A stretch of DNA of 64,000 nucleotides from an uncultured Erysipelotrichaceae bacterium (GTDB lineage Bacteria > Bacillota_I > Bacilli_A > RF39 > UBA660): contig CACZST010000034.1 of NCBI GenBank assembly GCA_902783895.1, forward strand, positions 23,748 to 87,747, read 5' to 3'. A program made the translations under genes and the position numbers. Positions 36,892-62,607 of this stretch are shown here, piece by piece; positions within the stretch are counted from its first letter, which is position 1, and the number at the start of each line of letters is the position of its first letter. The notes under the pieces were generated by a model, which was not told the DNA's origin, did no database searches, and saw nothing but the letters and a program-made list of their open reading frames with translations.

Positions 36892-36916
36892 AAGCATAGA
36901 TAATTTCTATGCTTAT
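36891..36916. terminator. bidirectional hairpin terminator between PBP1A and the convergent Fic/Doc gene
   Basis: aagcataga-taatt-tctatgctt followed by atttta. Confidence 0.5.
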
Positions 36917-45749: not shown

Positions 45750-46844
45750 ATTACATTTCTCCTTAGATTATCATTTATAAATTTATCAAGGTCACCATCT
45801 AATACTTTATTTACATTTACATCTTCTGTATTAGTTCGGTGGTCTTTTACTAAAGAGTATGGATGCATTACATAACTTCTTATTTGTGAGCCAAAATTTA
45901 TATCTTGTTTCTCACCTTGAATTTTTTTCATTTCATCCTCTTTATTTTTTTGCTCTATTTCATATAACTTACTACGTAAAATTTGCATTGCTTTTGCTTT
46001 ATTTTGAACTTGACTACGTTCATTTTGACATGTAACTACAATTCCAGTTGGAAGGTGGGTTATTCTAACAGCACTATCAGTTGTGTTTACTGACTGTCCA
46101 CCAGCTCCACTACTATGGTAAACATCGATTTTTAAATCTTTATCATCAATATCAATTTTTATTGTATCGTCAATAACAGGAGTTACAGTTACGGAAGCAA
46201 ATGAAGTATGTCTTCTGGCCCCAGAATCAAAAGGTGATATTCTTACTAGTCTATGAATACCCTTTTCATTTTTTAAATATCCATAAGCATTTAATCCTTT
46301 AACGATTAATGTAATACTTTTTATACCGGCTTCTAAACCTGGCTGGGTATCAACAACTTCTACTTTATAATTATGTTTTTCACAGTATCTTGAATACATA
46401 CGGTAAAGCATATTGGCCCAATCACAAGCTTCGGTTCCACCAGCCCCAGAATGTATTTCTAAAACTGCATCGTTTTTATCATATTCATTATTAAGTAATA
46501 TTTCGACTTCTACTTTTTCTATTTCTTTCCCAATATTTATACTTTCTTTTTCTAACCATTGTAGACTATTTACATCGTCTGGATCAATTTCTATTGCCAT
46601 TTCTAAATAATCTTTAGTTTCCGAAAGTAAATTTTTAACGTTTTCTAGTGTTTTCTTTTCACTATTTAAAATTGAAATTACTTCTTCACTATGTTTACGG
46701 TCATCCCAAAAATTTGGTAAATTCATTTCTTCTTCAAGTTTTTTTATTTTTTCTTCTTTAGCTTTTGGGTCAAAGTGACCTCCATAATTCATTTATTTTA
46801 TTTAGGCTTTTTTCATATATATTTATTGCTTCTTTTTTTTCCAT
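45746..46844 (-). CDS. prfB: peptide chain release factor 2 with programmed +1 ribosomal frameshift: join(46773..46844, then skip 46772, 45746..46771)
   Basis: ATG at 46844 (AGGGAGG SD) encodes MEKKEAINIYEKSLNKINELWRSL then CTT TGA C (46770-46776) with internal SD GGAGG 3 nt upstream. A +1 shift reads GAC CCA AAA = DPK and continues as ORF-track frame 45746..46792 (…SPFDSGARRHTSF, GGQ in [23 protein letters not shown]). Confidence 0.9.
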
Positions 46845-46962: not shown

Positions 46963-48180
46963 CTAATTATTTATTTTTATCATTTTTCTTGATACAATTA
47001 TTGCTAAACTAATAAATATAATTCCAATTGATGCGATTATTATTGATGCTTTTGCGGAGGTAGCTGGAACTTCAACTATTTGCGGGTTGTCTGTTTTACT
47101 ATTCTTATCATCTTTTATAGTATCTTTTATAATATCTGTTGCATTGGCTTTTTTATCATCTACTTCATCATCTTTTTCATCATCTTTTGGTGCATATAAT
47201 GTATATGGACTTTCTTTAGTACCTTCTCCTTCTAAAGTAGTTTCACTTGATATATAGAAGGCTGGGCGAACGCCTAATGTAGATGTTGCAACATTAAAGT
47301 CAATTACTCCTGTTAAAGATGAATTTGCTGAATCAAGATGAAGGTTATCCTGGGAATAATAAGGATTTGATATTGGATTTAAAAACCATGGAGAGATTTT
47401 TGAATACAAATAATTATGACTTGTTATGTTTTTATGACAAGACTCTTTGGCTTGATAATTTCTAAAGGCTGCAAATCCGTTACATTCAGGGTTTGTGCTT
47501 GCTTTAATATAATCAGTTACATTCATTAAAGCTATTTTGCCTTTCCATTTATATGTAGCTTCCTCATTTAAAGTTTCACTTACTGGAGCATCACTTTTTA
47601 CGTAGTAATAATCTACACTACCTATATTCCAAATATAATCTACTATTATTTTTTTAATATCATCAGATAGGCTATTATACCAAGTTGTATTTAAATATGT
47701 ATTTAAACTTGCCTCTTTATCTGGCAAATTATATAGTTTATCACCTATTCCTTTTGGCATTTGAGTTACATTATTACTGTTTGAATCTAGTGTAGTTGTA
47801 TTACTTCCCCAGACATTACATCCATAATCTGAATTACAATAGTCTTCGGAATTTGTGGATTTTCTATTTTCTTTTGTATCAAAATTGGCAGATGATGAAT
47901 TATATACTGTACCATTAGCGTCATTTTTTACTATTTTCATTTTACCATCTACTTCAATTGATATTATTCTATATAAGCTATTATTTAGTTTTAAGTAATT
48001 ATTTGGACTACCACCTTTATAGATATATCTCCCTTCTTCATCATTATCTATATAAAGCCCATCTCCTGATGTCACTGTATTTAAAACTAGGTTTCTGGAA
48101 GTAATGCTTTGAGCTTTTACTTGTGTATTTAAAGTTAGAGGTATTCCAATTAAACCTAAATAAGTCAAAATATTTTTCAT
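46963..48180 (-). CDS. surface-protein family paralog with VEVPATSA + TM + basic tail C-terminus
   Basis: Start MKNILTYLGLIGIPLTLNTQVKA after AGGAGGA; conserved blocks GDGLYID..GRYIYKGGSPNNYLKL, LPDKEASLNTYLN, KWKGKIALMNVTDYIKAS, RPAFYISSETTLEGEGT. Confidence 0.7.
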   Translation of the reverse strand: MKNILTYLGLIGIPLTLNTQVKAQSITSRNLVLNTVTSGDGLYIDNDEEGRYIYKGGSPNNYLKLNNSLYRIISIEVDGKMKIVKNDANGTVYNSSSANFDTKENRKSTNSEDYCNSDYGCNVWGSNTTTLDSNSNNVTQMPKGIGDKLYNLPDKEASLNTYLNTTWYNSLSDDIKKIIVDYIWNIGSVDYYYVKSDAPVSETLNEEATYKWKGKIALMNVTDYIKASTNPECNGFAAFRNYQAKESCHKNITSHNYLYSKISPWFLNPISNPYYSQDNLHLDSANSSLTGVIDFNVATSTLGVRPAFYISSETTLEGEGTKESPYTLYAPKDDEKDDEVDDKKANATDIIKDTIKDDKNSKTDNPQIVEVPATSAKASIIIASIGIIFISLAIIVSRKMIKINN

Positions 48181-48268: not shown

Positions 48269-49756
48269 TTATTTACTGATATCCTTCTTTTTAAATACTT
48301 TTAAATATAAGTATCCACTTACTGCAAGTAATATGACTGCACCTACTATTACAAATATTGATGTGAATAATGAAGTTGGTGGTACATCTACTATTTGGGT
48401 AATACTTGATGTTATATTATTTGAATTAGCAGATCCTCCCATATTTGATAAAGTATATGGACTGTTTTCGCTTCCTTCTCCACCAGTTATACTAATAGAT
48501 GAATTTAAATGAACAACTGGTCTTATTGAGAATGAATTATAATATACTGCACCAAAATCTTGGTAAACATATTGTGGGTTTAATCCTTGATTTGAGGCTG
48601 AATACACAAGTTCATTACTGTTATAAACTGGTGTGATTAATAAATAATTATAATCAGTAAATTTGTATGTCTCAGGTGGAATTAAATAATTTGATTTATC
48701 ACAATTATTTTTTAAGGTTGGGTATCTAAATTTTGCATATGTACCATATTTTTCACTTCCATCTACTAATTTGTCATCACTCCAACTATTAGCACATCCT
48801 CCCCAATTATCTTTTTGTGTGCATTCTCCGTTAGTATTAACTAATGTCATCGTTCCACATGTTTTTTCATCATTAGTTGCTTCAAGTACATCTGTTAATG
48901 TTGGCATAGCAACATTACCATTCCATGTATATTTACTTTCTTCTTCATTATTTTCTTTTATAATATTATTAATTTCTGTAAAATAACTATCATAAGTAGG
49001 TTTTAACTCCTCCATTTTTTGCTTTTCTTTTTCCATTTGAGATTTATAATATGTTGAATTAGTACCACTTGGATCATTTTCATAATTTTTTTTATTTGTC
49101 TCATAAAAATCTTTAGCACCCAAGTATCCTACCACTTTTTCTTCATATACTTTATCTTTTAAAGATACACCACCAATATTATAATTGTATTTTACGATTT
49201 GATTTTTGGCATTTTCTGATAGCTTTTTATAATAATCATTATTTAAATAATCATTAATATCTGAGTTATTTTCAACTTTACCTTTTAATTCAAACGTTTT
49301 GTCATATTGATCATAATCTAAGCTATTGGGCCCGCTATAGCCACTAAGACCATTTTCTGTTACACCTGCATAGACACCGTTACTGAAGCTATCTGTTTTA
49401 GCCCAGGCATTACATCCAAATTGGGCATAATCACAGTATCTATTCCCTGTTGGTTTTTGCTGATCAATGTCAAATGTTGCATTATTATCTAGGGTATTTG
49501 ATCTAATTATTTTTAATGTTCCATCTTTTTCGATGGCCATTACTCTCCAAAGTTCATTATTGAATTTGATATAGTTATTTGGATTTGCTCCTTTATAGAC
49601 ATATCTGCCTTCAGTTACTTCATCTTTGTAAAGTCCTTCACCTTCAGTTACTACTTTACTTTTTAAAGTTTCTGAAGCAGTACTTGCGGCGTTTACCTGT
49701 GATATCATAGTAAAAGGTATACTAAATAAGCTTAAAAATAATAAAAATTTTTTCAT
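48269..49756 (-). CDS. surface-protein family paralog (divergent middle) with DVPPTSL + TM + basic tail C-terminus
   Basis: 495 aa; signal peptide MKKFLLFLSLFSIPFTMISQVNA; GEGLYKD..GRYVYKGANPNNYIKFNNELWRV N-terminal block. Confidence 0.7.
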   Translation of the reverse strand: MKKFLLFLSLFSIPFTMISQVNAASTASETLKSKVVTEGEGLYKDEVTEGRYVYKGANPNNYIKFNNELWRVMAIEKDGTLKIIRSNTLDNNATFDIDQQKPTGNRYCDYAQFGCNAWAKTDSFSNGVYAGVTENGLSGYSGPNSLDYDQYDKTFELKGKVENNSDINDYLNNDYYKKLSENAKNQIVKYNYNIGGVSLKDKVYEEKVVGYLGAKDFYETNKKNYENDPSGTNSTYYKSQMEKEKQKMEELKPTYDSYFTEINNIIKENNEEESKYTWNGNVAMPTLTDVLEATNDEKTCGTMTLVNTNGECTQKDNWGGCANSWSDDKLVDGSEKYGTYAKFRYPTLKNNCDKSNYLIPPETYKFTDYNYLLITPVYNSNELVYSASNQGLNPQYVYQDFGAVYYNSFSIRPVVHLNSSISITGGEGSENSPYTLSNMGGSANSNNITSSITQIVDVPPTSLFTSIFVIVGAVILLAVSGYLYLKVFKKKDISK

Positions 49757-49820: not shown

Positions 49821-51323
49821 TTACACTTGTTTTGCTTTGTTTTGAAGTTTTTTTATTTGATTTTCAATAAGTAATATTTTAAACTTATTTTCATTAATTT
49901 TAAAGTTTGATTTTTCAATATTTTGCAATAATTTCATTTTTTTATTGTTAAGTAAAAAGTCTTTGCCGATGCTTACTAATTTTGGAAGATAAAATTTTTC
50001 AATACAGGCATTCATAGCAATGAATTCATCACCAACAGTTTTTAAATTAGGTTTATTTATTTCTTTTAACTCTCCATTACATATTAAGAAGGAGTTTCCT
50101 ACTTTGGTTAGGTTTGGAAAATTTATTTTACTAATGTTTGAATTACAATAGATGAAATCATTTCCTACTTCTTTTAAATTTGGTAATGATATTTTTTTCA
50201 TGTTATAGTTATAAGTTAAAAAATCATCTTCTATTTTTTCTAAGTTTGGCATATTAATTTCTTCTAAATATTCACTGTGGTATAAAAATTTACTACCTAT
50301 TTCTTTTAGGTTTTTATTTTCGTAAGAGATTAATCTATTTTGATTATCCAATGTTATTAAAGTTTCACCCTTTTCAGTAATTAACGTTATTAACTTTTTT
50401 TCTTTTGTTTTACTTATATTAATTTTTTTAATATTTTTTAAATTATCTAAAAAAGAATTTTCTGCTTCTTCATTATAAGTATATATTTTTTTATTTTGAA
50501 TGTCTAAGATGAATTCATCAAATAATATATAGGAATCTTTTTTATAAGTGATTACTTTATCACCATCAATTATAATGTTGTTTGGACAGTAAAATATACC
50601 GTTTATTTCAAGGTTATACTTATATAATTTACCGTTTTTATCCTCAATGTATTTTTCTAATCTTAATCCTTCTTCAGGATTTGTTTGGGTAAGACCATAT
50701 GTTGTTTCAAAGGCATACGTAAGTCCTGGAATGATATTTTCTAAATTATTACTAAAAGTTGCGTCTGGATTATCTACTGTATGATTATATCTATTTTTTA
50801 TTGATAATGTTTTATATTTATCTTTTGTAAATTGAATACTGATAACTGATGTACCGTATTCATCTTGTCTTTTTGGATCATTAAAGTTTTCTCTTTTTAT
50901 TTCATTTACGTTTTTTTTAATGGCCCAAAAGACATGGCATCTTTCTAATCGATTACTGTGAAATGAACATAATTCTTCATTTTGAGTAAAATACCTTTTA
51001 AAGCTTTCAAGCTGTTCTTCAGTATGACACTCATAAAAATCATAGCCTGCTTCTTCTAATAATTCTTTTGGGGTTTTATCTGTCTTTGTTTTAGTTATTA
51101 CATTTTCAACTTTACTGAAGATAAATTGTTTGAAGGTATTTGTTACGCCAGCTGAGATGATATCATCATAGAGGTATTTATTTTCTTCGAAATTTTTTTC
51201 TAATATTTTAGGAAGTAATCCTTTAGTTTCTAATATAGTTGAAAAAAGTTCTCGGCAGAGATGCATCATTTTTTCCCCATATTTTTTCTTAATCCATTTT
51301 AAATCATCATTCATATATATCAT
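49821..51323 (-). CDS. cytoplasmic NTD-LRR family protein, copy 1 (conserved roughly 220 aa N-domain plus about 6 BspA-type 23-aa LRRs)
   Basis: 500 aa; no signal peptide; invariant RQDEYGTSVISIQFTKD; repeats of the form FPNLxxVGNxFLxxNxxLKEINKPNL. Confidence 0.7.
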   Translation of the reverse strand: MIYMNDDLKWIKKKYGEKMMHLCRELFSTILETKGLLPKILEKNFEENKYLYDDIISAGVTNTFKQFIFSKVENVITKTKTDKTPKELLEEAGYDFYECHTEEQLESFKRYFTQNEELCSFHSNRLERCHVFWAIKKNVNEIKRENFNDPKRQDEYGTSVISIQFTKDKYKTLSIKNRYNHTVDNPDATFSNNLENIIPGLTYAFETTYGLTQTNPEEGLRLEKYIEDKNGKLYKYNLEINGIFYCPNNIIIDGDKVITYKKDSYILFDEFILDIQNKKIYTYNEEAENSFLDNLKNIKKINISKTKEKKLITLITEKGETLITLDNQNRLISYENKNLKEIGSKFLYHSEYLEEINMPNLEKIEDDFLTYNYNMKKISLPNLKEVGNDFIYCNSNISKINFPNLTKVGNSFLICNGELKEINKPNLKTVGDEFIAMNACIEKFYLPKLVSIGKDFLLNNKKMKLLQNIEKSNFKINENKFKILLIENQIKKLQNKAKQV

Positions 51324-51343
51324 CCTTTATATTCTTTGAATGG

Positions 51344-53110
51344 TTAAACTTGTTTTGGTTTTTCTTCAATATTTTTGTTTGTATTTATAACGGCTAGAAC
51401 AAACCTATAGTCATCTTTTATTATTTTGTATTTACTATTTACTTGAATTTCTTGTTCTTTATTTAATAGTTTTTGCATAAACTGATAAGGAACACTGCTT
51501 AGTTTTGGTAAATTAATACTTTCTAAAACAACATTACAGTATAGGAAACCACTTCCAAAATCTGATAAATTTGGGAAATCAATGTTTCTTATTTCTCTAT
51601 TTTGGAATAGGAAATCTGATCCGACTTTCGTTAAATTTGGAAGATAAACTTCTCTTATTTTTTGATTAGATTTTATAAAGTTATATCCTGCATCTTGTAG
51701 ACATGGGGCATATAGCTGAGTTAATTCTTCATTTTGGCCTAAAAAGTTTCCTTTTATTTCAGTTAATTTTGGAATATTAATATTTCTTAGTTTTTTATCT
51801 GATTGAAGGAAACTTTCACCAGCATAAATTAAATTTGGGAATTTTGCTTCTTCAATTTCATTATTAAAGCCTAAAAACATATCACCAGATACTTGTAAAT
51901 TTGGAAGATTTATATTATTTAATATTTTATTATAGTATATAAAATAATTGCCTACTTTTTGTAAATTAGGGAAATCTATTTCAGTTAATTCTCTATTTTC
52001 TTTTAAGAAGTTATGGCCAATTTCAGTTACATTTTGCATGCTTATATGTTTTACACATTTAGCATTTTCTAGGTAATTATTTGGAACTATTTTAATATTT
52101 TCATCTGTTAACCCAATTATTCTATTTTGTTTATTTAAAATCACTTCAACGATTCTATCTTTTAATTCTATGATTATTTTTTTATTATCATTTTCCTTTT
52201 TTATATCTATTTTTTGAATATCATTTAGTGTATCAACGAATCCGTCATAAGATAAGGGATCATAATTGGTTATTTTTTTATTTTGCAAATCCAAAATATA
52301 ATTTTCAAATATTAAGTAATTTTCTTTGCTGTATTTTTTAACATTTCCATTATCAACTATGACATTGTTTTGGCAGTAATATATACCATCGATAGTAAAA
52401 TTATATCTATAAAATTTTCCGTCTTTGGCTTTTATGTAATTTGGAATTGCAAATTCTTCGTCTTTATTTGTCTGCTTTAAACCATATTTTTTCCCAAAGG
52501 CATCTGTCAGTCCTGGGATGATGTTATCTAGATTATTGGCAAAAGTCGCATCTGGATTATCTACTGTATGATTATATCTATTTTTTATTGACAAAGTATT
52601 ATAATTATCTTTGGTAAATTGGATACTTATAACCGATGTGCCATACTCATCTTGTCTTTGGGGTTTTTCAAAATTCTCTCTTTTTATTTCGTCTACATTT
52701 TTCTTAACTGCAAAGAAGACATAACATCTATTTAGACGTCCCCCTTGAAATGTACATATTGCTTCATCTAAAGCATAATATTTTTTAAAAGACTGGATTT
52801 CTTCTTCAGTTTTACATTCATATAAATCATAGCCAGCTTGATTTAATAATTCCTCTGGGTCTTTATCTGCTTTTATATTTTCATCATTTAAGCTTGCTTT
52901 ATTGTAGATAAAACTTTTAAAAGAATATTTTAAACAATTATTAATAATATCATCATATAAGTTTCTATTTTCATCAAAATTTTCTTCAAATATTTGGGTA
53001 AGTAAACCTTTTTCTTCTAGGATTGTTGGGAAAAGTTCTCGGCAGAGATGCATCATTTTTTCCCCATATTTCTTTTTAATTTTTTTTAAATCTTCATTCA
53101 TTGTTTTCAC
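51344..53110 (-). CDS. cytoplasmic NTD-LRR family protein, copy 2
   Basis: 588 aa; same N-domain, about 10 LRRs; ATG abuts the stop of the small partner ORF. Confidence 0.7.
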   Translation of the reverse strand: MKTMNEDLKKIKKKYGEKMMHLCRELFPTILEEKGLLTQIFEENFDENRNLYDDIINNCLKYSFKSFIYNKASLNDENIKADKDPEELLNQAGYDLYECKTEEEIQSFKKYYALDEAICTFQGGRLNRCYVFFAVKKNVDEIKRENFEKPQRQDEYGTSVISIQFTKDNYNTLSIKNRYNHTVDNPDATFANNLDNIIPGLTDAFGKKYGLKQTNKDEEFAIPNYIKAKDGKFYRYNFTIDGIYYCQNNVIVDNGNVKKYSKENYLIFENYILDLQNKKITNYDPLSYDGFVDTLNDIQKIDIKKENDNKKIIIELKDRIVEVILNKQNRIIGLTDENIKIVPNNYLENAKCVKHISMQNVTEIGHNFLKENRELTEIDFPNLQKVGNYFIYYNKILNNINLPNLQVSGDMFLGFNNEIEEAKFPNLIYAGESFLQSDKKLRNINIPKLTEIKGNFLGQNEELTQLYAPCLQDAGYNFIKSNQKIREVYLPNLTKVGSDFLFQNREIRNIDFPNLSDFGSGFLYCNVVLESINLPKLSSVPYQFMQKLLNKEQEIQVNSKYKIIKDDYRFVLAVINTNKNIEEKPKQV

Positions 53111-53389
53111 CTATCCATAATATCTTTTTAATTTCATTTTTTTAGTTTTGGTTATTACTTCTATCACATCAGCATCATTTTCCTTGACATTTTTACCATA
53201 TTTACCAGATAATGGGCCAAATGATAATGGTATATGTTCATCGAGTAAATATTCATCCATGATTATGGAATCTTCTGATTTAGGATCTTCAACATCATAA
53301 AATTGCATGTTTACGCTATAATCATTATTATTTTCATCTTCTAAAATATAGTTATAATCTTCAATGTTTTTAATTGTTAATTTTTTCAT
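53111..53389 (-). CDS. small partner protein of the NTD-LRR array (copy B)
   Basis: AAGGAGA SD then ATG at 53389; MKKLTIKNIEDYNYILEDENNNDYSVNMQFYDVEDP...LSFGPLSGKYG...KRYYG; paralogous to 58598..58876. Confidence 0.65.
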   Translation of the reverse strand: MKKLTIKNIEDYNYILEDENNNDYSVNMQFYDVEDPKSEDSIIMDEYLLDEHIPLSFGPLSGKYGKNVKENDADVIEVITKTKKMKLKRYYG

Positions 53390-53390
53390 T

Positions 53391-55043
53391 TTATCTCCTT
53401 TTTCTTTTGTTTTTATTTTTATCTTCAAATTTTAATATTAATAATTTTGCTTTAGTATCTTTTTCTATTTTATAATTTGTATTTCTTTTATATTTATCTC
53501 TTAGAAAACCGAATGGGAATACTGTATTTTTCCCCGGCTTTAGTTTTAATGTAAGACTTTCGATAGTTTGATTATGATCGAGAAAGTCATTACCAATAAT
53601 TTCAAGATTTGGGAAATATAGATTTTTAATGTTTTGATTGTTTTTTAAAAAATTACTACCAACTTGAGTTAAATTTGGGATATTTATGCTTTCTAAATTT
53701 TGATTATATCCTAGAAAATAATCTCCTATTATTCTGACATTTGGCAGGCTTATTTCTTTTAATTGGTTTTTGCAACCTAGAAAATAGTCTCCAATTATTT
53801 CAACATTTGGCATATTTATTTTTTCAATATTTTCATTTTGCATATTGAAGTTATTACCTATTTTTTTTACATTTGGTAAATTAATCTCTTTTAAGCTAGA
53901 GGCTAGTGTTAGAAAGCTATTTCCTATTGTTTGTACATTTGGTAAATTTAAAAACCTTATTTTTCTGGCAAAAGGTAAAAAACTATCACCAATTTCTTTT
54001 ATATTTTCATTACTATAACCTACTATTTGGTTTAAATTGTCTAAATATAAATATGACTCTTCATTATCTTTAGTTTTAAACTTAATTATTTTAATATCAT
54101 TTTCTTTGATTATATCAATATTTTTTATATTAAATAAAATGTTTTTAAAGCTATCTCGTCTTCTTTCATTATACTGATAGATTATTTTCTTTTTTAAATC
54201 AAGTATTAGGTCATCGAAAACTATGAAAGAATCTTTATCAAATTTGTGAATTCCAGTTTTTCTACTATAAGTACTTCCTTTATCAATTATTATATTATTT
54301 GGGCAGTAATAAATACTTAGGTGTTTGAAATTGTATTTATAGTATCTTCCATCATTTGCTTTGACATATTTTGGTAGGTTAAAAGGTTCATCTGAATCAT
54401 TCTCATAAATACAGTATGTTTGTTTAAAAGCGTTTGTTAGCCCTGGAATTATGTTTTCTAAATCGTTACCAAAGGTTGCATCTGGATTTTCGACGGTATG
54501 GTTATATCTGTTTTTTATTGATAGTGTATTTGACATATCTTTGGTAAATTGAATACTTATTACAGATGTACCATATTCATCTTGTCTTTGGGGATTAGTG
54601 AAATTCTCTCTTTTTATTTGATTTACGTTTTTTTTAACGGCAAAGAAGACATGACAATTATTTAATCTTCCTCCATCAAAGGTACATAATTCTTCGTCTT
54701 CTTTAAAGTATTTTTTAAATTTTTGGATTTCCTCTTCCGTTTTACATTCATAAAAATCATAGCCTGCTTCTTCTAATAATTCTTTTGGGGTTTTATCTGT
54801 ATCTATTTTTATATTATCTTTGATATCTGTTTTACTGAAAATGAAGTTTTTAAATGAAGTTTTTATCCCATTTTCTATGATATCATTATATAAAAATTTA
54901 TTTTCTGCAAAATTTTCCATTAGTATTTTAGGAAGTAATCCTTTTTCTTCCAATATTGTTGGGAAAAGTTCACGGCATAAATGCATCATTTTTTCGCCAT
55001 ATTTCTTTTTTATTATTTTTAAATCTTCATTCAATTTTATCAC
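53391..55043 (-). CDS. cytoplasmic NTD-LRR family protein, copy 3
   Basis: 550 aa; start overlaps the stop of copy 4 (ATGA). Confidence 0.7.
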   Translation of the reverse strand: MIKLNEDLKIIKKKYGEKMMHLCRELFPTILEEKGLLPKILMENFAENKFLYNDIIENGIKTSFKNFIFSKTDIKDNIKIDTDKTPKELLEEAGYDFYECKTEEEIQKFKKYFKEDEELCTFDGGRLNNCHVFFAVKKNVNQIKRENFTNPQRQDEYGTSVISIQFTKDMSNTLSIKNRYNHTVENPDATFGNDLENIIPGLTNAFKQTYCIYENDSDEPFNLPKYVKANDGRYYKYNFKHLSIYYCPNNIIIDKGSTYSRKTGIHKFDKDSFIVFDDLILDLKKKIIYQYNERRRDSFKNILFNIKNIDIIKENDIKIIKFKTKDNEESYLYLDNLNQIVGYSNENIKEIGDSFLPFARKIRFLNLPNVQTIGNSFLTLASSLKEINLPNVKKIGNNFNMQNENIEKINMPNVEIIGDYFLGCKNQLKEISLPNVRIIGDYFLGYNQNLESINIPNLTQVGSNFLKNNQNIKNLYFPNLEIIGNDFLDHNQTIESLTLKLKPGKNTVFPFGFLRDKYKRNTNYKIEKDTKAKLLILKFEDKNKNKRKRR

Positions 55044-56872
55044 CCCACTTTTTTGGGAATATTGGTTTCATTTGTATTTTGATTATTATCAATAAGAATT
55101 AATTCAAAATTACTATCTCCCCTTTGTAATTTATATTTCGGACTTATTTTTATTGATTCATATTTTTTATACAGATTATATAAAAATAAATATGGAACTT
55201 CTTTTAGATTTGGTAAGTATACTTCATTTATTTTTTCATTACTATAAAAGCTACCGCTGCCCGCAATTTCTAGATTTGGTAGTGATAAATTTGTAAGTTC
55301 ATTATTTGACTGCATAAAATAAGAACCAACTCTTTTTATATTAGGCATATTTATTTTTTCCATTATTTCATTATAACGTAAACTATTATGACCAATTGAA
55401 ATTATGTTTGGAAGGCTTAATTCTTTTAAGCCTTGGTTATACATAAGAAATCCGCTACCTGCAGTTTCTAGATTTGGAGCGATAAATGTATCAATGATTC
55501 GGTTACTATTTAAAAAATAATTACCAACTTCTTTTAAATTTGGTAAATTTAAATACTGCAATTTTTTATTAAATTGCATAAATGAATTTCCAACAGTTTC
55601 TAGATTAGGTAAATTTACTTCATTAACTGATTCATTAAAATATAAAAAGTTATCTCCAACTGTTTTTAAATTAGGAAAATCAATTTCTTTTAAATAAAAA
55701 TTTCGAGTAAGAAATCTATTCCTAATGTTTTCAAGATTAGGAAGCTCAAGTTTCTTTATATATTTATTTTCGGTTAAAAAATTATCATTTGCTTCTTTGA
55801 TATTTTCATCTTTTAAGTATATCATTCTACCGAGTTTATCTAAGGTTATTTCTATAACTTCATTATTTTCTTTGGTTATAGTTATTGTTTTAGTTTCTTT
55901 ATCTTTGGTTATATCAATATTTTTAATATTTTGCACTCTTTCTAAAAAAGATTCTTTTATGTTTTTATCATATGTTTTAATTGTTTTTGATTTTAAATCT
56001 ATAATAAAATTATCGAATAGTAAATAAGATTCTTTATCAAATTTCTTTACTTGATCATTATCAATTATTATATTATCTTGGCAGTAAAATATATCATCAA
56101 TAACAAGGTTATATCTATATAATTTTCCATCATTTGCTTTTACATAGTTTTCTAAATTTAGACAATCCGATTTTGTAGTTGGATGGGTAGCATTATAGCC
56201 AAAATCATACACTATATCTTTTTCTTCCTCTTTTAAAGATGATTGAATTAATCCATATGTTTTTTCAAAGGCATGTGTTAAACCTGGAATAATATTATCA
56301 AGATTATTACTGAATGTTGCATCTGGATTGTCGGCTTTGTGATTATATCTATTTTTTATTGATAGGCTATGATAAACATCTTTGGTAAATTGAATACTTA
56401 TAACGGATGTACCGTATTCATCTTGTCTTTGGGGAATACTAAAATTTTCCCTCTTTATTTCATTTACATTTTTTTTAACGGCCCAAAAGACATAACATCT
56501 ATCTAATCTTTTTTCTTCAAAGGTACATAATTCTTCACCCTCAGCATAATATTTTTTAAAAGATTGGATTTCTTCTTCAGTTTTACATTCATAAAAATTG
56601 TATCCTGCTTCTTCTAATAATTCTTTTGGAGTTTTATTTGTTTCAATTGTTTTATTTTGAATGTTTGCTTTACTATAAATAAAATTTCTAAATGAATATA
56701 TCATATTTTGGTCAATGATATCAAAATATAGTTGATGACTTATTGCGAAATTTTCTTTCAGTATTTTTGGTAATAGTCCTTTTTTTTCAATTATTGTGGG
56801 GAAATTTTTTCGGCATAAATGCATCATTTTTTCGCCGAATTTTTTCTTTATCCATTTTAAATCCTCGTTCAT
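55040..56872 (-). CDS. cytoplasmic NTD-LRR family protein, copy 4
   Basis: 610 aa, about 11 LRRs. Confidence 0.7.
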   Translation of the reverse strand: MNEDLKWIKKKFGEKMMHLCRKNFPTIIEKKGLLPKILKENFAISHQLYFDIIDQNMIYSFRNFIYSKANIQNKTIETNKTPKELLEEAGYNFYECKTEEEIQSFKKYYAEGEELCTFEEKRLDRCYVFWAVKKNVNEIKRENFSIPQRQDEYGTSVISIQFTKDVYHSLSIKNRYNHKADNPDATFSNNLDNIIPGLTHAFEKTYGLIQSSLKEEEKDIVYDFGYNATHPTTKSDCLNLENYVKANDGKLYRYNLVIDDIFYCQDNIIIDNDQVKKFDKESYLLFDNFIIDLKSKTIKTYDKNIKESFLERVQNIKNIDITKDKETKTITITKENNEVIEITLDKLGRMIYLKDENIKEANDNFLTENKYIKKLELPNLENIRNRFLTRNFYLKEIDFPNLKTVGDNFLYFNESVNEVNLPNLETVGNSFMQFNKKLQYLNLPNLKEVGNYFLNSNRIIDTFIAPNLETAGSGFLMYNQGLKELSLPNIISIGHNSLRYNEIMEKINMPNIKRVGSYFMQSNNELTNLSLPNLEIAGSGSFYSNEKINEVYLPNLKEVPYLFLYNLYKKYESIKISPKYKLQRGDSNFELILIDNNQNTNETNIPKKVG

Positions 56873-56884
56873 TTTTACCTCCGA

Positions 56885-58588
56885 TTATATTTTCTTTTCA
56901 TATTCGTTATTTTCTTTCTTGTTTTTAATTTCTTTATCAATAACCATTAATTCAAAATTGTAGTTTCTTCTTTCTAGTTTATATTCATGACTTATATTTA
57001 TTGTCCTTTTTGTTTCTGATAATTCTTGCAAGAATCCAAAACCAATTTTTCTTATTTTAGGTAAATAAATTTTGTTTATTTTTTTATTTTGGCTTAAACT
57101 TTCTGTACCTATTACTTGAACATTTGGCAAGATAAGTTCTTTTAAATTTTCATTTGCATAAAGAAAATATGCGCCAACTTCTTTTAGATTTGGTAAATTA
57201 ATACTACTTAATTGTTTATTACTTTCAAGAAAATATGAACCTATTATTTGAATGTTTGGCATGTAAATTTCTTTAATATTTTTATTTTGTAGTAAACAAA
57301 AATTATCTATCTTTTTAGCACTTGGTAAATTTAATGATTTTAACTTTACATTTGTGATTAGAAATTCTTCACCAATTGTTTGAACATTTGGTAAATTTAT
57401 TTTTACCAAATCAAAATTATTATTTAAAAAATTATTACCTATTCTTATGACATTTGGCAGATTTATTTCTTTTAAATGTTCATTTTCAATCAAAAAATTA
57501 TCATCAAGCTCTTTAATGTTATCATTTTTATATCCAATAAAACGATTTTGTTTATCAATTGTGATTGTTGATTTAGTCTTATCTTTTAAGGTTATAACGA
57601 TATCTTTTGTTTCTTTATTTTTAATAATATCAATATTTTTGATATCTTTATATAATTCGGAAAAAACTCTTTCTAAAAAAGGATCATATGATTTTAATAT
57701 TTTATTTTTTAAATCTAGTATGAAATTATCAAATACTATATATGATTCTTTTGAAAATTCAACGACTTCACCACATTCGATTATAACGTTATTTGGACAA
57801 TAATATATATTATTGTGACACATATTATATTTGTATAATTTTCCATTTCCAGCTCTTACATAATTATCTAAATTAAAACGATTATTTTTATTTTCTTGAA
57901 TCATATTTAAAAAAATAAATCCGTGTTTACTTTTTTCTTTTTTAGATATATCATTATTTTGAATTAAATTATATGTTTTTTCAAAGGCATATGTTAAACC
58001 TGGAATAATATTGTCTAAATTGTTTCCAAAAGTGGCATCAGGATTATCAACCATATGATTATATCTATTTTTAATTGATAATGTTTGGTGACTATCTTTT
58101 GTAAATTGAATACTTATTACAGATGTACCATACTCATCTTGTCTTTGGGGGTTATGAAAGTTTTCCCTTTTTATTTCATCTACATTTTTCTTAACCGCCC
58201 AGAAGACATAGCATTTTTTTAATCTGTTTTCTTCGAAAGTACATAACTCTTCGCTTTCTTTATAATATTTTTTAAAGGCATTGATTTCTTCTTCGGTTTT
58301 GCATTCATAAAAATCATAACCAGCTTCTTCTAGTAATTCTTTCGGAGTTTTTTCTGTTTGCGTGATTGTAAAATTTATTTGGGCTTTACTATATATGAAA
58401 GCTTTAAAGGATTGGACCATTTGGGCATTTATTATATCATCACATAACTGGTGACTTTCAGCAAAATTTTCTTCTAATAATTTTGGAAGCAATCCTTTTG
58501 TTTCTAAAATTGTTGGGAAGATTTTTTTACATAAATGGCTCATTTTTTCGCCATATTTTCTTTTTATTTCTTTTAAATCTTCGTTCAT
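56885..58588 (-). CDS. cytoplasmic NTD-LRR family protein, copy 5
   Basis: 567 aa, about 9 LRRs. Confidence 0.7.
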   Translation of the reverse strand: MNEDLKEIKRKYGEKMSHLCKKIFPTILETKGLLPKLLEENFAESHQLCDDIINAQMVQSFKAFIYSKAQINFTITQTEKTPKELLEEAGYDFYECKTEEEINAFKKYYKESEELCTFEENRLKKCYVFWAVKKNVDEIKRENFHNPQRQDEYGTSVISIQFTKDSHQTLSIKNRYNHMVDNPDATFGNNLDNIIPGLTYAFEKTYNLIQNNDISKKEKSKHGFIFLNMIQENKNNRFNLDNYVRAGNGKLYKYNMCHNNIYYCPNNVIIECGEVVEFSKESYIVFDNFILDLKNKILKSYDPFLERVFSELYKDIKNIDIIKNKETKDIVITLKDKTKSTITIDKQNRFIGYKNDNIKELDDNFLIENEHLKEINLPNVIRIGNNFLNNNFDLVKINLPNVQTIGEEFLITNVKLKSLNLPSAKKIDNFCLLQNKNIKEIYMPNIQIIGSYFLESNKQLSSINLPNLKEVGAYFLYANENLKELILPNVQVIGTESLSQNKKINKIYLPKIRKIGFGFLQELSETKRTINISHEYKLERRNYNFELMVIDKEIKNKKENNEYEKKI

Positions 58589-58597
58589 TGCTTTCTC

Positions 58598-58876
58598 CTA
58601 TCCGTAATATCTTTTTAGTATTATTTCTTTATCTTCAGTTATTACTTTTATAACATCTTTGTCTCCTTCAGTAACTTCTCTTCCATATTTACCTGATAAT
58701 GGGCCGAATGAAAGGGGAACATTTTCTTCTAATAAATATTCATTCATTAATAAGTAATTGTTTTCTTTTGGGGTTTCTACTGAATAAAATTCTAAATTTA
58801 AGTTATATAGATTTTTGTTTTCATCTTCTAAAATATAATTATATCCATCTTTTTTTATTATTTTTAATGTTTTCAT
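58598..58876 (-). CDS. small partner protein of the NTD-LRR array (copy A)
   Basis: AAGGTGA SD then ATG at 58876; MKTLKIIKKDGYNYILEDENKNLYNLNLEFYSVETP...LSFGPLSGKYG...KRYYG. Confidence 0.65.
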   Translation of the reverse strand: MKTLKIIKKDGYNYILEDENKNLYNLNLEFYSVETPKENNYLLMNEYLLEENVPLSFGPLSGKYGREVTEGDKDVIKVITEDKEIILKRYYG

Positions 58877-59157
58877 TTTTTCACCTTTTCTAATATAAAA
58901 TATTTGCATCCATAAGCACAGCTATCTTTTATATATGTGTGGACTTTTTTAAAATCATTTATTTTATTAAATAAGTAGTTTTTAGGTTTACAAAAACCTT
59001 TTAGTCTTAATTTTCCATATGACCAATCACCTAATATATAATCGTAATCTTTAAAATAATCGGTTATAATTTTTTCAATTTCTTCTTCTTGAAAAGCATC
59101 TTTATAATTTTCTAATAATTTATAGTGATTTTCAATTAACTCTATATTATTTTCCAT
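58873..59157 (-). CDS. yutD: YutD-family protein (DUF1027)
   Basis: Start MENNIELIE after GGGTGA; ILGDWSYGKLRLKGF...CAYGCKYFILEKV matches the YutD pattern; overlaps the start of small partner A by 4 nt. Confidence 0.7.
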   Translation of the reverse strand: MENNIELIENHYKLLENYKDAFQEEEIEKIITDYFKDYDYILGDWSYGKLRLKGFCKPKNYLFNKINDFKKVHTYIKDSCAYGCKYFILEKVKK

Positions 59158-61420: not shown

Positions 61421-62548
61421 TTAAATCCTTTTATTTTTTGTCATTTTTTTCGTAATTATTACAGCTAAAGATATAAATATAATTCCAATAGATGCGATTA
61501 TTATAGACATCTGAGCGGATGTGGATGGTACTTCTACTAATTGCCTGTTATCTATATCGACTTCATTATTATTTTCTTCATCTTTTGTTTCTTCAACATA
61601 TTTTGAAACTGTATATGGATTAGTCTCTGTACCTTCTCCATTTAGTGTAGTTTCAGAGGATAGGTAGAATGCGGGACGGACATACATATTAATCCATGTG
61701 TGTTGATAACCTAAATATCCTCGACCAGTTGTAATACTTGAATTATATCTATTTGCATTCTCGGAGTAGGAAGAAATCGTCCATTCACTATTCTTAGGAT
61801 ATAAATAATTATGCGTTTCACTATTATTGTAACACGATGAATTTCCATTGGCATAGTAATAATCTTTTATACTTATGCAAGCACTATTATTAGAACCTTT
61901 AATATAATCTATAGCGCTAATCAAAGCTACTTTACCTTTCCATTTATATGCTGTTTCTTCTTTTACACTTTCTTTTAAATCTTCTTGATTATAATTTATT
62001 ACTCCTACACCCCAATATTTTTCCTTAATGTATTCTTTAATATTATCACTTAATCCGTTATAAAAATCATTATTTAAATATGTATTTAATGTTGACTCCT
62101 TTTCTGGAAGATTCTTTAAGTTCCCTCCTATCTCCCATGACATTTGGATTACTTTGTTTCCACTCTCATCTAACATAGTCTCATTACTTCCCCAGACTTT
62201 GCAGCCAAGTGAACCAGTTGAATAGCAAAAATCATCACCAGCCTTCGATGGTCTTGAATCACCCTTGTCCCAAGGCGTTTCCCCAATACTATCTTGTTTT
62301 ACTACTTTTATAGTTCCATCTTTTTCTACTGATATTATTCTGTAAAGGTCATCACCTAATTTAATATAGTTATTTGGATTCCCACCCCTATAAATATATC
62401 TTCCATCTATAGTGGAATCTACATATAAACCATCTCCTGACGTTACTACATTTTTCTTTAAGATATCTGCAGTTTTTTCCATAGCTTTTACTGGATAAAA
62501 AGATATACTTAAAAGAATTACTGAAAGTGTAAAAAATAATTTTTTCAT
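61421..62548 (-). CDS. surface-protein family paralog (intact reference copy) with VEVPSTSA + TM + basic tail
   Basis: 375 aa; signal peptide MKKLFFTLSVILLSISFYPVKA; all conserved family blocks present. Confidence 0.75.
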   Translation of the reverse strand: MKKLFFTLSVILLSISFYPVKAMEKTADILKKNVVTSGDGLYVDSTIDGRYIYRGGNPNNYIKLGDDLYRIISVEKDGTIKVVKQDSIGETPWDKGDSRPSKAGDDFCYSTGSLGCKVWGSNETMLDESGNKVIQMSWEIGGNLKNLPEKESTLNTYLNNDFYNGLSDNIKEYIKEKYWGVGVINYNQEDLKESVKEETAYKWKGKVALISAIDYIKGSNNSACISIKDYYYANGNSSCYNNSETHNYLYPKNSEWTISSYSENANRYNSSITTGRGYLGYQHTWINMYVRPAFYLSSETTLNGEGTETNPYTVSKYVEETKDEENNNEVDIDNRQLVEVPSTSAQMSIIIASIGIIFISLAVIITKKMTKNKRI

Positions 62549-62587: not shown

Positions 62588-62607
62588 AAAAAAAAAAAAA
62601 AAAAAAC
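62588..62607. repeat. A(20) on + strand, T(20) on the coding strand: a homopolymer in the promoter spacer of the surface-protein gene 61421..62548, replacing T8/T7 at the same position in the paralogous promoters
   Basis: Coding-strand context attacttg-T20-gataaaatgggtatagtaaagtaggagagg, versus attac-T8-gctaaaatgggtatagtaaaaataggaggag upstream of 49756 and T7 upstream of 17595. Confidence 0.7.

What the first reader, a model, noticed from the sequence alone, without database searches (positions are those of the whole stretch)
61421..62548. Dispersed five-member surface-protein family with a non-canonical VEVPxTS + TM + basic-tail C-terminus
Paralogs lie at 16474..17595 (pseudogene), 28811..29773, 46963..48180, 48269..49756 and 61421..62548. 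They share a signal peptide, an N-terminal block GDGLY.D....GRY(I/V)YKG..PNNYIK(L/F).N.L(Y/W)R(I/V), and central blocks LPDKEA(T/S)LNTYLN, KWKGKIALxxxxDYIKAS, THNYL and RPAFY(L/I)SSETTLxGEGTE.NPY. Four of the five end in Q(I/V)V(E/D)VP(S/A/P)TS(A/L), then about 20 hydrophobic residues, then a K/R tail. That is the tripartite layout of sortase substrates, but the motif is not LPXTG, NPQTN or (S/P)PXTG. This may be a variant sorting signal for a dedicated sortase, or a simple C-terminal anchor. The 28811 copy stops right after GEGTEANPYSISE and so lacks the anchor; it is predicted to be released.
Basis: partly seen in the sequence, partly recalled or inferred. Interest (0 to 1): 0.7.

Follow-up and report, generated by a model that had tools for sequence, protein, structure and literature searches.

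The report
Variant surface-anchor signal on lectin-like proteins
An uncultured low-GC gut bacterium carries a family of lectin-like surface proteins ending in a conserved, previously uncatalogued tag (QVVEVPSTSA, a membrane helix, then a basic tail), which the same clade also puts on unrelated enzymes and adhesins; it is most likely a new variant of the sortase cell-wall anchoring signal, though no sortase has yet been tied to it.

Summary
Five paralogs on the minus strand share the stated blocks, and four end in Q[VIL]V[ED]VPxTS[AL], then about 20 hydrophobic residues, then a K/R tail.

The tail is a modular sorting signal, not a family relic. A profile search of 1.84 billion proteins found 53 clusters, nearly all matching at the very C-terminus. 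About half carry unrelated passengers: GH5, GH16, GH43, thioester and AgI/II adhesin domains, and beta-helix proteins. The motif is the most conserved stretch of the protein.

It scores just below NCBI's LPXTG-anchor threshold, and no curated model or paper describes it. Related MAGs encode class B sortases next to substrates ending ENPKTSD, which resembles EVPSTSA.

No sortase was found in about 86 kb of this contig or in 268 kb of tail-bearing loci, so sortase dependence is inferred, not shown.

The anchorless 28811 copy belongs to a subfamily with N-terminal anchors. In this strain its true start is frameshifted.

Verdict: new variant of a known kind.

The parts
61421..62548 (-). Gene for the 375-aa surface protein in the finding. 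Layout: signal peptide, DUF6273/CTLD-like ectodomain, acidic linker, VPSTS signal, membrane helix, basic tail.
   Evidence: ORF. It is identical to P0001 from public assemblies. Pfam DUF6273 scores 32.9 bits against a cut-off of 23.5. The AF2 model has pLDDT 88.
62483..62548 (-). Sec-type signal peptide, aa 1-22: MKKLFFTLSVILLSISFYPVKA, followed by ME.
   Evidence: Read from the sequence: a basic n-region, a hydrophobic core and V-K-A before the likely cleavage site. It is conserved in homologs. The cleavage site itself is inferred.
61613..62482 (-). Ectodomain, aa 23-312: an enlarged C-type-lectin-like domain (DUF6273) ending in GEGTETNPY. It contains a hypervariable stretch at about aa 256-290.
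61544..61612 (-). Acidic, low-complexity linker, aa 313-335.
   Evidence: pLDDT is below 50 for residues 325-342. Length and sequence vary among homologs.
61514..61543 (-). Conserved sorting motif QLVEVPSTSA, aa 336-345, with the VPSTS core at aa 340-344.
   Evidence: V338, V340, P341, T343 and S344 are invariant in 20 homologs. Position frequencies come from 103 distinct tails. Conservation is 0.90.
61451..61510 (-). Hydrophobic membrane-spanning segment, aa 347-366: MSIIIASIGIIFISLAVIIT.
   Evidence: The model predicts a helix over residues 343-371.
61424..61450 (-). Positively charged tail KKMTKNKRI, aa 367-375. The stop codon is at 61421-61423.
   Evidence: The median net charge of tails across the set is +4.
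62588..62606 (-). T19 homopolymer on the coding strand, 40-58 nt upstream of the start codon in the promoter region. It is a possible length-variable expression switch.
   Evidence: The paralog at 16474 has T7 at the same place in an otherwise conserved upstream region. Any function is inferred.
46963..48180 (-). Paralog of 405 aa. Motif QIVEVPATSA is at 47053..47082, the membrane segment at 46990..47049 and the tail at 46966..46989.
   Evidence: It is identical to P0050.
48269..49756 (-). Divergent paralog of 495 aa with large insertions. Motif QIVDVPPTSL is at 48368..48397, the membrane segment at 48302..48367 and the tail at 48272..48301.
16474..17595 (-). Paralog interrupted by one in-frame TAA at 17437..17439. 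Motif QVVEVPSTSA is at 16564..16593.
   Evidence: Intact alleles P0014 and P0318 (372 aa, 97% identical) occur on other contigs.
28811..29808 (-). Paralog without a C-terminal anchor, belonging to the N-terminally anchored 'GYAAF' subfamily. The true start ATG at 29806..29808 follows a GAGG ribosome-binding site. An A13 tract at 29783..29795 puts it out of frame with the body of the gene.
   Evidence: The common allele P0315 is 332 aa and starts MRKIQKRKKQKTMMF; it is found on 20 contigs.

Best explanation
The gene at 61421..62548 encodes a Sec-exported protein that is displayed on the cell surface.

Its roughly 290-residue ectodomain is an enlarged C-type-lectin-like binding module (Pfam DUF6273). 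This is the same module as the N-terminal domain of the Thomasclavelia ramosa IgA peptidase and as many phage receptor-binding proteins. An acidic linker holds it away from the membrane.

The C-terminus is a clade-specific, modular sorting signal:
- the motif Q-[VI]-V-[ENDS]-V-P-x-T-[SA]-[ALM];
- a hydrophobic segment of about 22 residues that starts 0-3 residues after the motif;
- a K/R-rich tail.

The most likely mechanism is the sortase route. After export, the membrane helix and basic tail hold the precursor in the membrane. A sortase, probably of class B type, cleaves after the invariant Thr and transfers the protein to peptidoglycan.

Steps that are shown:
- the domain identity and fold;
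- the architecture of the tail;
- its strong conservation;
- its restriction to the extreme C-terminus;
- its reuse on unrelated secreted enzymes and adhesins in a small clade of low-GC gut Bacilli that have peptidoglycan and sporulation genes.

Steps that are inferred:
- cleavage after Thr;
- the identity of the enzyme;
- attachment to the wall;
- the ligand of the lectin-like domain.
For: 1. Architecture. There is a signal peptide, and the motif, hydrophobic run and basic tail sit at the very C-terminus in four paralogs.

2. Conservation. V338, V340, P341, T343 and S344 are invariant in 20 homologs of 29-69% identity. The motif is the most conserved segment, at 0.90 against 0.71 for the ectodomain. 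Among 103 distinct tails:
- the x position varies (S78, A14, P4, N3, plus K, Q, D and I);
- unconstrained upstream positions are also conserved (V102 at -3, Q71/E14 at -5, A87 after the S/A);
- the regex used for collection fixed P/A at position 0, T, S/A after T, and V/I/L at -1, so those columns are not independent evidence.

3. Modularity. An exhaustive HMMER search with the 44-residue tail profile found 53 clusters among 1.84e9 representatives, nearly all matching at the extreme C-terminus. About half lack the DUF6273 domain. Their passengers are:
- GH43, GH16 plus He_PIG, GH5, and an SKN1-like domain;
- a thioester domain and the AgI/II C2 domain;
- beta-helix proteins;
- a 1004-aa AgI/II-type adhesin ending VNVPITSAN.
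Thioester and AgI/II domains are typical of sortase-anchored adhesins (established knowledge).

4. Same genome. A non-DUF6273 protein ending DVVEVPSTSAQ, then a membrane segment, then KYMTKKNN lies about 10 kb beyond the window on the same contig (L001:1-627).

5. Resemblance to known signals. Tails alone score 13.6-14.9 bits on TIGR01167 LPXTG_anchor (cut-off 15.9) and weakly match the IsdC C-terminus. The whole protein weakly matches EF0750_LPXTG over residues 310-371.

6. Relatives.
- Related Bacilli MAGs encode a conserved class B sortase: Pfam Sortase, and the source name 'class B sortase [Bacilli bacterium]'.
- It always lies next to beta-helix substrates ending (V/A/E)ENPKTSD, a membrane segment, then (R/H/K)KKLA.
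- That signal aligns with VEVPSTSA at the E, P, T and S positions.
- One such substrate is homologous to a VPATSA-tailed beta-helix protein: 24% identity over 271 aa, E 4e-5.

7. A wall is present. The window encodes PBPs, SpoIIP, Gpr and YunB.

8. Literature.
- Class B sortases use non-LPXTG motifs: (S/P)PXTG in C. difficile (PMC4155245), and NPXTG or NPQTN elsewhere.
- They depend on residues outside the pentapeptide (PMC11987632).
- The T. ramosa IgA peptidase combines the same N-terminal domain with SPQT|G, a membrane helix and a charged tail (PMC12237041).

Against: - No sortase gene was found in the window, in the roughly 86 kb of this contig that could be read, or in 268 kb of loci carrying such tails. 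This is only weak evidence, because it samples a small part of each genome.
- None of about 15 tail-bearing genes examined has an adjacent sortase. In contrast, the ENPKTSD substrates of related MAGs are always sortase-adjacent.
- VPxTS matches no experimentally established sortase motif, and the LPXTG-anchor model is not reached.
- The conserved stretch of about 10 residues, including QVV upstream, is longer than a classical pentapeptide.
- Three homologs (P0043, P0044, P0047) keep VPSTS but have about 24 extra residues before the membrane segment.
- The MAGs in which the class B sortase was seen showed no VPxTS tails in the sampled loci. Conversely, the tail-bearing MAGs showed no sortase in theirs.
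Confidence: 0.55

Rival explanations
1. The tail is a plain, uncleaved C-terminal membrane anchor, making a type I membrane protein. The conserved juxtamembrane stretch QVVEVPSTSA would serve another purpose, for example as an O-glycosylation or stalk element, or as a contact site for a membrane partner. No transpeptidation would take place.
For: - No sortase was found near any tail-bearing gene or in 268 kb of tail-bearing loci.
- The motif fails the LPXTG-anchor threshold.
- The conserved stretch is longer than a sortase pentapeptide and is rich in Ser/Thr.
- Variants with a 24-residue insertion between the motif and the membrane segment exist.
Against: - A simple anchor needs no conserved motif. 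Here the motif is the most conserved part of the protein.
- It is kept on at least eight unrelated passenger families whose linkers are otherwise free to vary, which implies recognition by shared machinery.
- Another C-terminal membrane segment plus basic tail in the window (40461..40901) lacks the motif, so the motif is not a general feature of anchors in this genome.
- The core is P-x-T with a small residue after Thr, and P, T and S are invariant across 20 homologs. Together with the passenger types (thioester and AgI/II adhesins), this is the signature of sortase substrates.
Confidence: 0.25
2. The tail is a sorting signal processed by an enzyme other than a sortase. Candidates are a rhomboid-type or CPBP-type intramembrane protease, by analogy with GlyGly-CTERM/rhombosortase or MYXO-CTERM/myxosortase. 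Processing would release the protein or re-attach it.
For: - The signal has the tripartite C-terminal layout shared by all such systems.
- Small residues (T-S-A) followed by F/Y-G and Gly-containing helices (AFGSIIIAGLG) resemble rhomboid cleavage contexts. This comparison comes from memory of the TatA/AarA motif and was not tested here.
- No sortase could be linked to the tails.
Against: - No NCBIfam CTERM-type model other than sortase-related ones is approached by the tails.
- No conserved candidate enzyme is seen next to tail-bearing genes.
- The P-x-T core is specific to sortase signals among known systems.
Confidence: 0.12
3. The shared C-terminus merely reflects common descent of one gene family and has no signal function.
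For: The four window copies are paralogs that are 64-71% identical in DNA.
Against: - The same tail occurs on proteins with unrelated, Pfam-defined domains: GH5, GH16, GH43, thioester, AgI/II and beta-helix.
- It is more conserved than the domain it is attached to.
Confidence: 0.02

Closest known systems
Class B sortase cell-wall sorting signals: NPQTN/NPKTG in Staphylococcus and Bacillus IsdC, (S/P)PXTG in Clostridioides difficile, and the curated NCBIfam 'Rumino_NPXTG' model.
   Same: - Both have an N-terminal signal peptide, a xPxT(small) core, a hydrophobic segment straight after it, and a basic tail at the extreme C-terminus.
- Both are used on adhesins and glycoside hydrolases.
- Residues outside the pentapeptide matter for class B enzymes (PMC11987632).
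- Related MAGs carry class B sortases next to ENPKTSD substrates, which align with EVPSTSA.
   Different: - The first core position is Val rather than Asn, Ser, Pro or Leu.
- The residue after Thr is Ser or Ala, never Gly or Asn.
- A further conserved Q-[VI]-V-x block lies upstream.
- No sortase has been linked to it, the genes are not sortase-adjacent, and no curated model or paper describes it.
Canonical LPXTG anchor (TIGR01167), class A sortase substrates.
   Same: The tripartite layout is the same. The tails score 13.6-14.9 bits on the model.
   Different: The scores fall below the 15.9-bit cut-off. L is replaced by V and G by S/A. Cleavage has not been demonstrated.
N-terminal domain of the Thomasclavelia ramosa IgA peptidase (IgAse/ThomasA; PDB 9qa6), Pfam DUF6273.
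   Same: - It sits in the same position, directly after the signal peptide.
- Both proteins end in a linker, a sortase-like motif, a membrane helix and a charged tail (PMC12237041, PMC12402451).
   Different: - Here the domain is the whole passenger, with no peptidase or beta-domains.
- Sequence similarity to PDB chains is undetectable.
- IgAse uses SPQTG, not VPSTS.
- The function of the IgAse N-terminal domain is itself unknown, and it is dispensable for IgA cleavage.
C-type-lectin-fold variable proteins of diversity-generating retroelements: TvpA, Mtd and phage DUF6273 'tentaclins'.
   Same: - A hypervariable surface stretch lies just before the conserved C-terminal strand.
   Different: - There is no reverse transcriptase and no template repeat in the window.
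- No adenine-biased repeat pairs occur in the related loci.
- The paralogs differ at non-adenine positions too.

Membership tests
Sortase substrates (cell-wall sorting signal) | N-terminal Sec signal peptide | tested here: met
   MKKLFFTLSVILLSISFYPVKA, followed by ME, read from the sequence. It is conserved in about 50 homologs. The cleavage site is inferred.
Sortase substrates (cell-wall sorting signal) | Motif, then a hydrophobic segment of about 20 residues, then a positively charged tail at the extreme C-terminus | tested here: met
   for the window copies. Across 103 distinct tails the hydrophobic run has a median of 22 residues and starts 0-3 residues after the motif in 99 of them; the median net tail charge is +4. 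Profile hits end at the C-terminus in nearly every case.
Sortase substrates (cell-wall sorting signal) | Pentapeptide matching an experimentally established class motif: LPXTG, NPQTN/NPKTG, (S/P)PXTG, LAXTG or LPXTA | tested here: not met
   The core is VP[SAP]TS. TIGR01167 scores 13.6-14.9 bits against a cut-off of 15.9, and no other sorting-signal model reaches threshold.
Sortase substrates (cell-wall sorting signal) | Conserved Pro and Thr with a small residue after Thr | tested here: met
   P341, T343 and S344 are invariant in 20 homologs of 29-69% identity. In the 103-tail set the regex used for collection fixed these positions (P/A, T, S/A), so that tally is not independent evidence.
Sortase substrates (cell-wall sorting signal) | The signal is portable between unrelated passenger proteins | tested here: met
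   Passengers are GH43, GH16, GH5, thioester, AgI/II C2, beta-helix and Ig-like domains.
Sortase substrates (cell-wall sorting signal) | A sortase encoded in the same genome | tested here: inconclusive
   None was found in the window, L001 and L092 (about 86 kb of one contig) or in 268 kb of tail-bearing loci. Class B sortases are present in related MAGs. The rest of the genome could not be read.
Sortase substrates (cell-wall sorting signal) | Cleavage after Thr and an amide link to peptidoglycan | not testable with these tools
   This needs biochemistry or mass spectrometry.
Pfam DUF6273 / C-type-lectin-like domain | Profile match above the gathering threshold | tested here: met
   All five copies score 23.7-32.9 bits against a cut-off of 23.5. 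Most homologs are precomputed as PF19789.
Pfam DUF6273 / C-type-lectin-like domain | C-type-lectin-like core fold | tested here: met
   [not shown]
DGR variable proteins | A nearby reverse transcriptase and a template repeat that differs from the variable region at adenines | tested here: not met
   There is no YxDD-bearing ORF and no extra repeat of the variable stretch in the window. No adenine-specific repeat pairs occur in the related loci.
Other C-terminal sorting systems (PEP-CTERM, GlyGly-CTERM, PGF-CTERM and similar) | Match to the curated signal model | tested here: not met
   No such model is reported for the window tails even at E up to 10. Only sortase-type models appear.

The most novel reading that the evidence does not exclude
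VEVPxTS-CTERM is the housekeeping surface-display signal of a clade of uncultured low-GC gut Bacilli and is read by machinery that is not a classical sortase. This would be a new C-terminal sorting system in Firmicutes. A milder version is a new sortase specificity class with Ser/Ala after the scissile Thr and an extended upstream recognition strand.
Probability: 0.12. Interest if true: 0.8.

Novelty: new variant of a known kind. Interest (0 to 1): 0.5.

Why it matters
- **Annotation.** C-terminal sorting signals define which proteins a bacterium shows to its surroundings. This one is invisible to current annotation: it falls below the LPXTG-anchor threshold, no curated model exists, and no paper in the library mentions it. 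The whole surface proteome of these prevalent but uncultured gut Bacilli (lectin-like binders, glycoside hydrolases, thioester and AgI/II adhesins) is therefore currently labelled 'hypothetical'.
- **A usable model.** A profile of the tail would flag these proteins at once.
- **Sortase specificity.** If a sortase reads the signal, known sortase specificity extends to VPxT|S with an extended upstream element. That is of interest for sortase-mediated ligation.
- **The passenger domain.** It is the same module as the functionally unexplained N-terminal domain of the T. ramosa IgA peptidase and of phage receptor-binding proteins. A stand-alone, surface-anchored version is a simple system for finding its ligand.

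Tried and rejected
1. **DGR hypothesis.** DUF6273 is a known DGR target, and the family has a hypervariable stretch with raised GC and lowered A content in the 16474 copy. I looked for a template repeat and a reverse transcriptase. Neither is in the window. No adenine-biased repeat pairs occur in 99 related loci. The paralogs also differ at non-A positions. Rejected for this window.

2. **Word-indexed search with the tail profile**. It returned only three short ORFs. These turned out to be the 3' parts of beta-helix genes split by an in-frame stop. The exhaustive search was needed to see the distribution.

3. **Sortase hunt.**
 - The contig was walked in both directions.
 - Neighbourhoods of seven tail-bearing proteins were inspected.
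 - Contig lengths of sortase hits were compared with those of tail-bearing proteins.
 - Ten contigs carrying sortase P0274 were listed to look for the window's sample.
 - None of these linked a sortase to the window organism.

4. **JGI metagenome scan with the tail** gave a single locus.

5. **The genome-contig scan** returned mostly the anchorless subfamily and did not return the window species.

7. **NCBIfam** has no model for the 'GYAAF' N-terminus.

8. **The afdb50 library** was unavailable.

9. **Organism name.** It could not be obtained. Sources give no names for these clusters.
Full report
**1. Observation**

The five ORFs are present on the minus strand exactly as described.

| Coordinates | Length | Note |
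|---|---|---|
| 61421..62548 | 375 aa | the finding |
| 46963..48180 | 405 aa | |
| 48269..49756 | 495 aa | large insertions |
| 28811..29773 | 320 aa | no C-terminal anchor |
| 16474..17595 | 373 codons | single in-frame TAA at 17437..17439 |

At the DNA level the copies are 64-71% identical, so they are old duplicates.

Four copies end in Q[LIV]V[ED]VP[SAP]TS[AL], then 20-22 hydrophobic residues, then a tail of 8-10 residues rich in K/R. No other ORF in the window combines a [VLI]PxT[SGAN] motif with a C-terminal hydrophobic run and basic tail. One unrelated ORF (40461..40901) has such an anchor without the motif.

**2. The organism**

- The window is 24-31% G+C.
- It encodes PolC, RNase R, RF1/RF2, two penicillin-binding proteins, SpoIIP, the germination protease, YunB and FtsEX. 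This points to a wall-bearing, spore-forming Firmicute.
- The window is identical to part of a 100,670-bp human-gut metagenome scaffold (ENA ERZ28615022). It is nearly identical to contig CARDWQ010000001.1 of MAG GCA_948962665.1.
- Relatives of the protein family come from MAGs labelled 'uncultured Bacilli', 'Tenericutes', 'Firmicutes' or 'Erysipelotrichaceae' bacterium.

**3. The passenger domain**

- All five copies match Pfam DUF6273 just above the gathering threshold.
- An AlphaFold2 model built on 44 homologs is confident for residues 30-320 (mean pLDDT 88). Residues 325-342 are disordered and residues 343-371 form a helix.
- The viral structure library gives 18 hits with E at or below 1e-3. 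Most are phage 'DUF6273 domain-containing' or receptor-binding proteins.
- The literature agrees. DUF6273 domains of phage DGR targets are C-type-lectin-like (PMC10743442).
- The IgAse N-terminal domain (A31-A321) is an enlarged CTLD that is not needed for IgA cleavage. Its role is unknown (PMC12237041, PMC12402451).
- A stretch at about aa 256-290, just before the conserved RPAFYLSS strand, is hypervariable. Conservation there is 0.40, against 0.71 for the whole domain.

I tested whether a DGR maintains this variability. The window holds no reverse transcriptase and no template repeat, and no adenine-biased repeats occur in the related loci.

The domain is therefore best read as a ligand-binding (adhesin or lectin-like) module. 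Its variable face has diversified through ordinary paralog divergence. The ligand is unknown.

**4. The tail is a modular signal**

Among about 50 close homologs the C-terminus is Q[VI]VEVPSTSA, a membrane segment and a basic tail, almost without exception. In 20 homologs of 29-69% identity, V338, V340, P341, T343 and S344 are invariant while the preceding acidic linker varies freely. The motif is the most conserved segment of the protein.

The decisive test was an exhaustive HMMER search of 1.84 billion representative proteins with a 44-residue profile of the tail.
- It found 53 clusters at E of 1e-3 or below, nearly all matching at the extreme C-terminus.
- About half have no DUF6273 domain.
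- Their passengers include GH43, GH16 plus He_PIG, GH5 cellulase and an SKN1-like glucanase.
- They also include a thioester domain, AgI/II C2 domains, an Ig-like domain and beta-helix proteins.
- A 1004-aa AgI/II-type adhesin ends VNVPITSAN, a membrane segment, then NLKKKKITNAK.
- On the window's own contig, about 10 kb beyond its end, a non-DUF6273 protein ends DVVEVPSTSAQ, a membrane segment, then KYMTKKNN.

Over 103 distinct tails the position frequencies are as follows.

| Position | Residues (count) |
|---|---|
| -5 | Q71, E14 |
| -4 | V51, I43 |
| -3 | V102 |
| -2 | E68, N12, D10, S7 |
| -1 | V102 |
| 0 | P102 |
| x | S78, A14, P4, N3, others |
| T | T103 |
| after T | S94, A9 |
| next | A87, L9, M6 |

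The regex used to collect these tails fixed positions -1 (V/I/L), 0 (P/A), T and the residue after T (S/A). Only the other columns are independent evidence of conservation.

The hydrophobic run has a median of 22 residues and starts 0-3 residues later. The tail has a median net charge of +4.

All carriers come from contigs of 25-36% G+C. This is the behaviour of a sorting signal used by a restricted clade, not of a family-specific sequence.

**5. How it most likely works**

The layout, the P-x-T core with a small following residue, and the passenger repertoire are those of sortase substrates.
- Tails alone score 13.6-14.9 bits on the LPXTG-anchor model, against a cut-off of 15.9. They also weakly hit the C-terminus of IsdC, a class B sortase substrate.
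- Related Bacilli MAGs carry a well-conserved class B sortase. It matches Pfam Sortase, has an LTLSTC active-site motif, and sources name it 'class B sortase'.
- This sortase is always adjacent to one or two beta-helix proteins ending (V/A/E)ENPKTSD, a membrane segment, then (R/H/K)KKLA, or KNPSTND.
- V-E-N-P-K-T-S-D and V-E-V-P-S-T-S-A agree at V, E, P, T and S.
- One ENPKTSD substrate is detectably homologous to a VPATSA-tailed beta-helix protein.
- Class B sortases are known to use non-LPXTG motifs, for example (S/P)PXTG in C. difficile (PMC4155245). They also depend on residues flanking the pentapeptide (PMC11987632).
- The T. ramosa IgA peptidase carries the same N-terminal domain with an SPQT|G signal (PMC12237041).

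I therefore favour a sortase-type signal, VPxT|S. It would act through retention by the helix and tail, cleavage after Thr343, and transfer to peptidoglycan.

This last part is inference, and the evidence against it is real.
- I found no sortase in about 86 kb of the contig or in 268 kb of tail-bearing loci.
- No tail-bearing gene is sortase-adjacent.
- The motif matches no proven class.
- The conserved stretch is about 10 residues long.
- Three homologs have a 24-residue spacer before the membrane segment.

The sampled DNA is a small part of each genome, so the absence of a sortase is weak evidence. Housekeeping sortases are typically unlinked to their substrates (established knowledge).

The rival explanations are an uncleaved anchor with a conserved juxtamembrane element, and processing by a non-sortase enzyme. 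A pure common-descent explanation is excluded.

**6. The anchorless copy**

The 28811 copy is not a truncated version of the others.
- More than 70 homologs at about 50% identity all end at GxGTxxxPYxx.
- They carry one of two N-terminal anchors. One is a basic n-region plus a hydrophobic segment ending VGYAAF[SAQ][ST]xLxIxG. The other is a prepilin-type N-terminus, KGFTLIELLAV (Pfam N_methyl).
- The 28811 copy has the first type.

Its called start at 29773 is internal.
- An ATG at 29806..29808, preceded by GAGG, opens MRKIQKKKNKKQ* in another frame across an A13 tract.
- The prevalent allele (P0315, 332 aa, 20 contigs) reads MRKIQKRKKQKTMMFISLL.
- The window strain has therefore lost the single G that interrupts the A run.

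The prediction that this copy is 'released' is not supported. The subfamily is N-terminally anchored, or processed by an unknown route. In this strain the gene is frameshifted at its 5' end.

**7. Comparison with what is known, and novelty**

- The passenger is a member of a known but functionally unassigned domain family (DUF6273).
- The tail works like a sortase signal but fails the motif-membership test for every established class.
- No curated NCBIfam model and no paper in the searchable library mentions VPxTS.

I classify it as a new variant of a known kind. Interest is moderate. It would change annotation of the surface proteome of a prevalent uncultured gut lineage, and it may extend sortase specificity. 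However, the key mechanistic step is untested.

Noticed in passing
window 29783..29808 (minus strand): The 28811 paralog has its real start codon (ATG 29806..29808, after a GAGG ribosome-binding site) out of frame with the gene body across an A13 tract. The common allele in other assemblies (P0315, 332 aa, MRKIQKRKKQKT...) has a G inside the tract. This strain therefore carries a 1-nt deletion that also creates a slippage-prone homopolymer.
   Followed up: yes
window 17437..17439: The nonsense codon that makes the 16474 copy a 'pseudogene' is strain-specific. Intact 372-aa alleles (P0014, P0318; 97% identical) occur on 15 or more other contigs. Two of the five family members are thus disrupted in this strain only.
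   Followed up: yes
window 62588..62606: A T19 run on the coding strand lies 40-58 nt upstream of the 61421 gene, in a promoter region that is otherwise conserved with the 16474 paralog, which has T7 there. This tract and the A13 tract are the only homopolymers of 10 nt or more in the 64-kb window. Both sit at genes of this family, which suggests phase-variable expression.
   Followed up: partly
homologs P0051-P0120; window 29680..29773: Anchorless family members carry one of two N-termini. One is a prepilin-type N-terminus (KGFTLIELLAV, Pfam N_methyl). The other is a conserved 'VGYAAF[SAQ][ST]xLxIxG' hydrophobic N-terminus for which NCBIfam has no model. It vaguely recalls SipW/TasA-type signal peptides, but that comparison is from memory only.
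   Followed up: partly
L002:186..1553, also L003 and L004; intact version at L086:4927..6243: A beta-helix surface protein with the same VEVPSTSA tail is split by an in-frame TAA into 367 + 78 aa in at least three independent metagenome contigs. It is intact (438 aa) in another contig. This is a second case of a nonsense-disrupted tail-bearing surface gene.
   Followed up: partly
L081:7290..10197, L094:7864..10849, L096:8881..10849, L006:509..3067: Related small-genome Bacilli MAGs (contigs up to 1.5 Mb) have a conserved class B sortase. It sits in a fixed housekeeping neighbourhood (rpoZ, DUF2779, substrates, srtB, DUF3792, tgt) beside one or two pectate-lyase-like beta-helix proteins ending ENPKTSD, a membrane segment, then RKKLA.
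   Followed up: yes
L001:1..627 (same contig, about 10 kb beyond window position 64000): A further protein, not of the DUF6273 family (similar to P0141), ends DVVEVPSTSAQ, a membrane segment, then KYMTKKNN. With it, this 73-kb stretch holds five tail-bearing genes.
   Followed up: partly
window 49821..58588 (minus strand), with small ORFs at 53111..53428 and 58598..58909: Five tandem paralogs of 500-610 aa have a conserved N-terminal half (MNEDLKWIKKKYGEKMMHLCRELF...) and C-terminal leucine-rich repeats (Pfam LRR_5 in the precomputed hits). They have no signal peptide. Two homologous ORFs of about 104 aa are interleaved with them. Function is unknown.
   Followed up: no
window 23074..24153 and 36913..37623 (minus strand): Two ORFs carry Fic-like motifs (HPYFDVNGRTSR and HPFEDGNKRSAK). 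This was read from the translations only and not checked with a profile.
   Followed up: no
window 45746..46792 (minus strand): The RF2 (prfB) ORF starts at MNYGGHFDPK and appears to lack the usual N-terminal segment. That is what the well-known programmed +1 frameshift of prfB would produce. Not checked.
   Followed up: no
window 10499..10879 (minus strand): A 126-aa prepilin-type pseudopilin (MKKGFTLVELLGVITLLAIIAV) lies in the window. Pseudopilin genes also recur near family members and sortases in related loci (L092, L094, L096, L098).
   Followed up: no
homologs P0052-P0117: Near-identical anchorless homologs from related MAGs differ almost only in the roughly 30-residue stretch before (A/V)PV(L/F)YLSS. 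The stretch is rich in S, N, Y, G, D and A, a pattern reminiscent of DGR variable regions. No template repeat or reverse transcriptase was seen within 10 kb of the sampled copies.
   Followed up: partly
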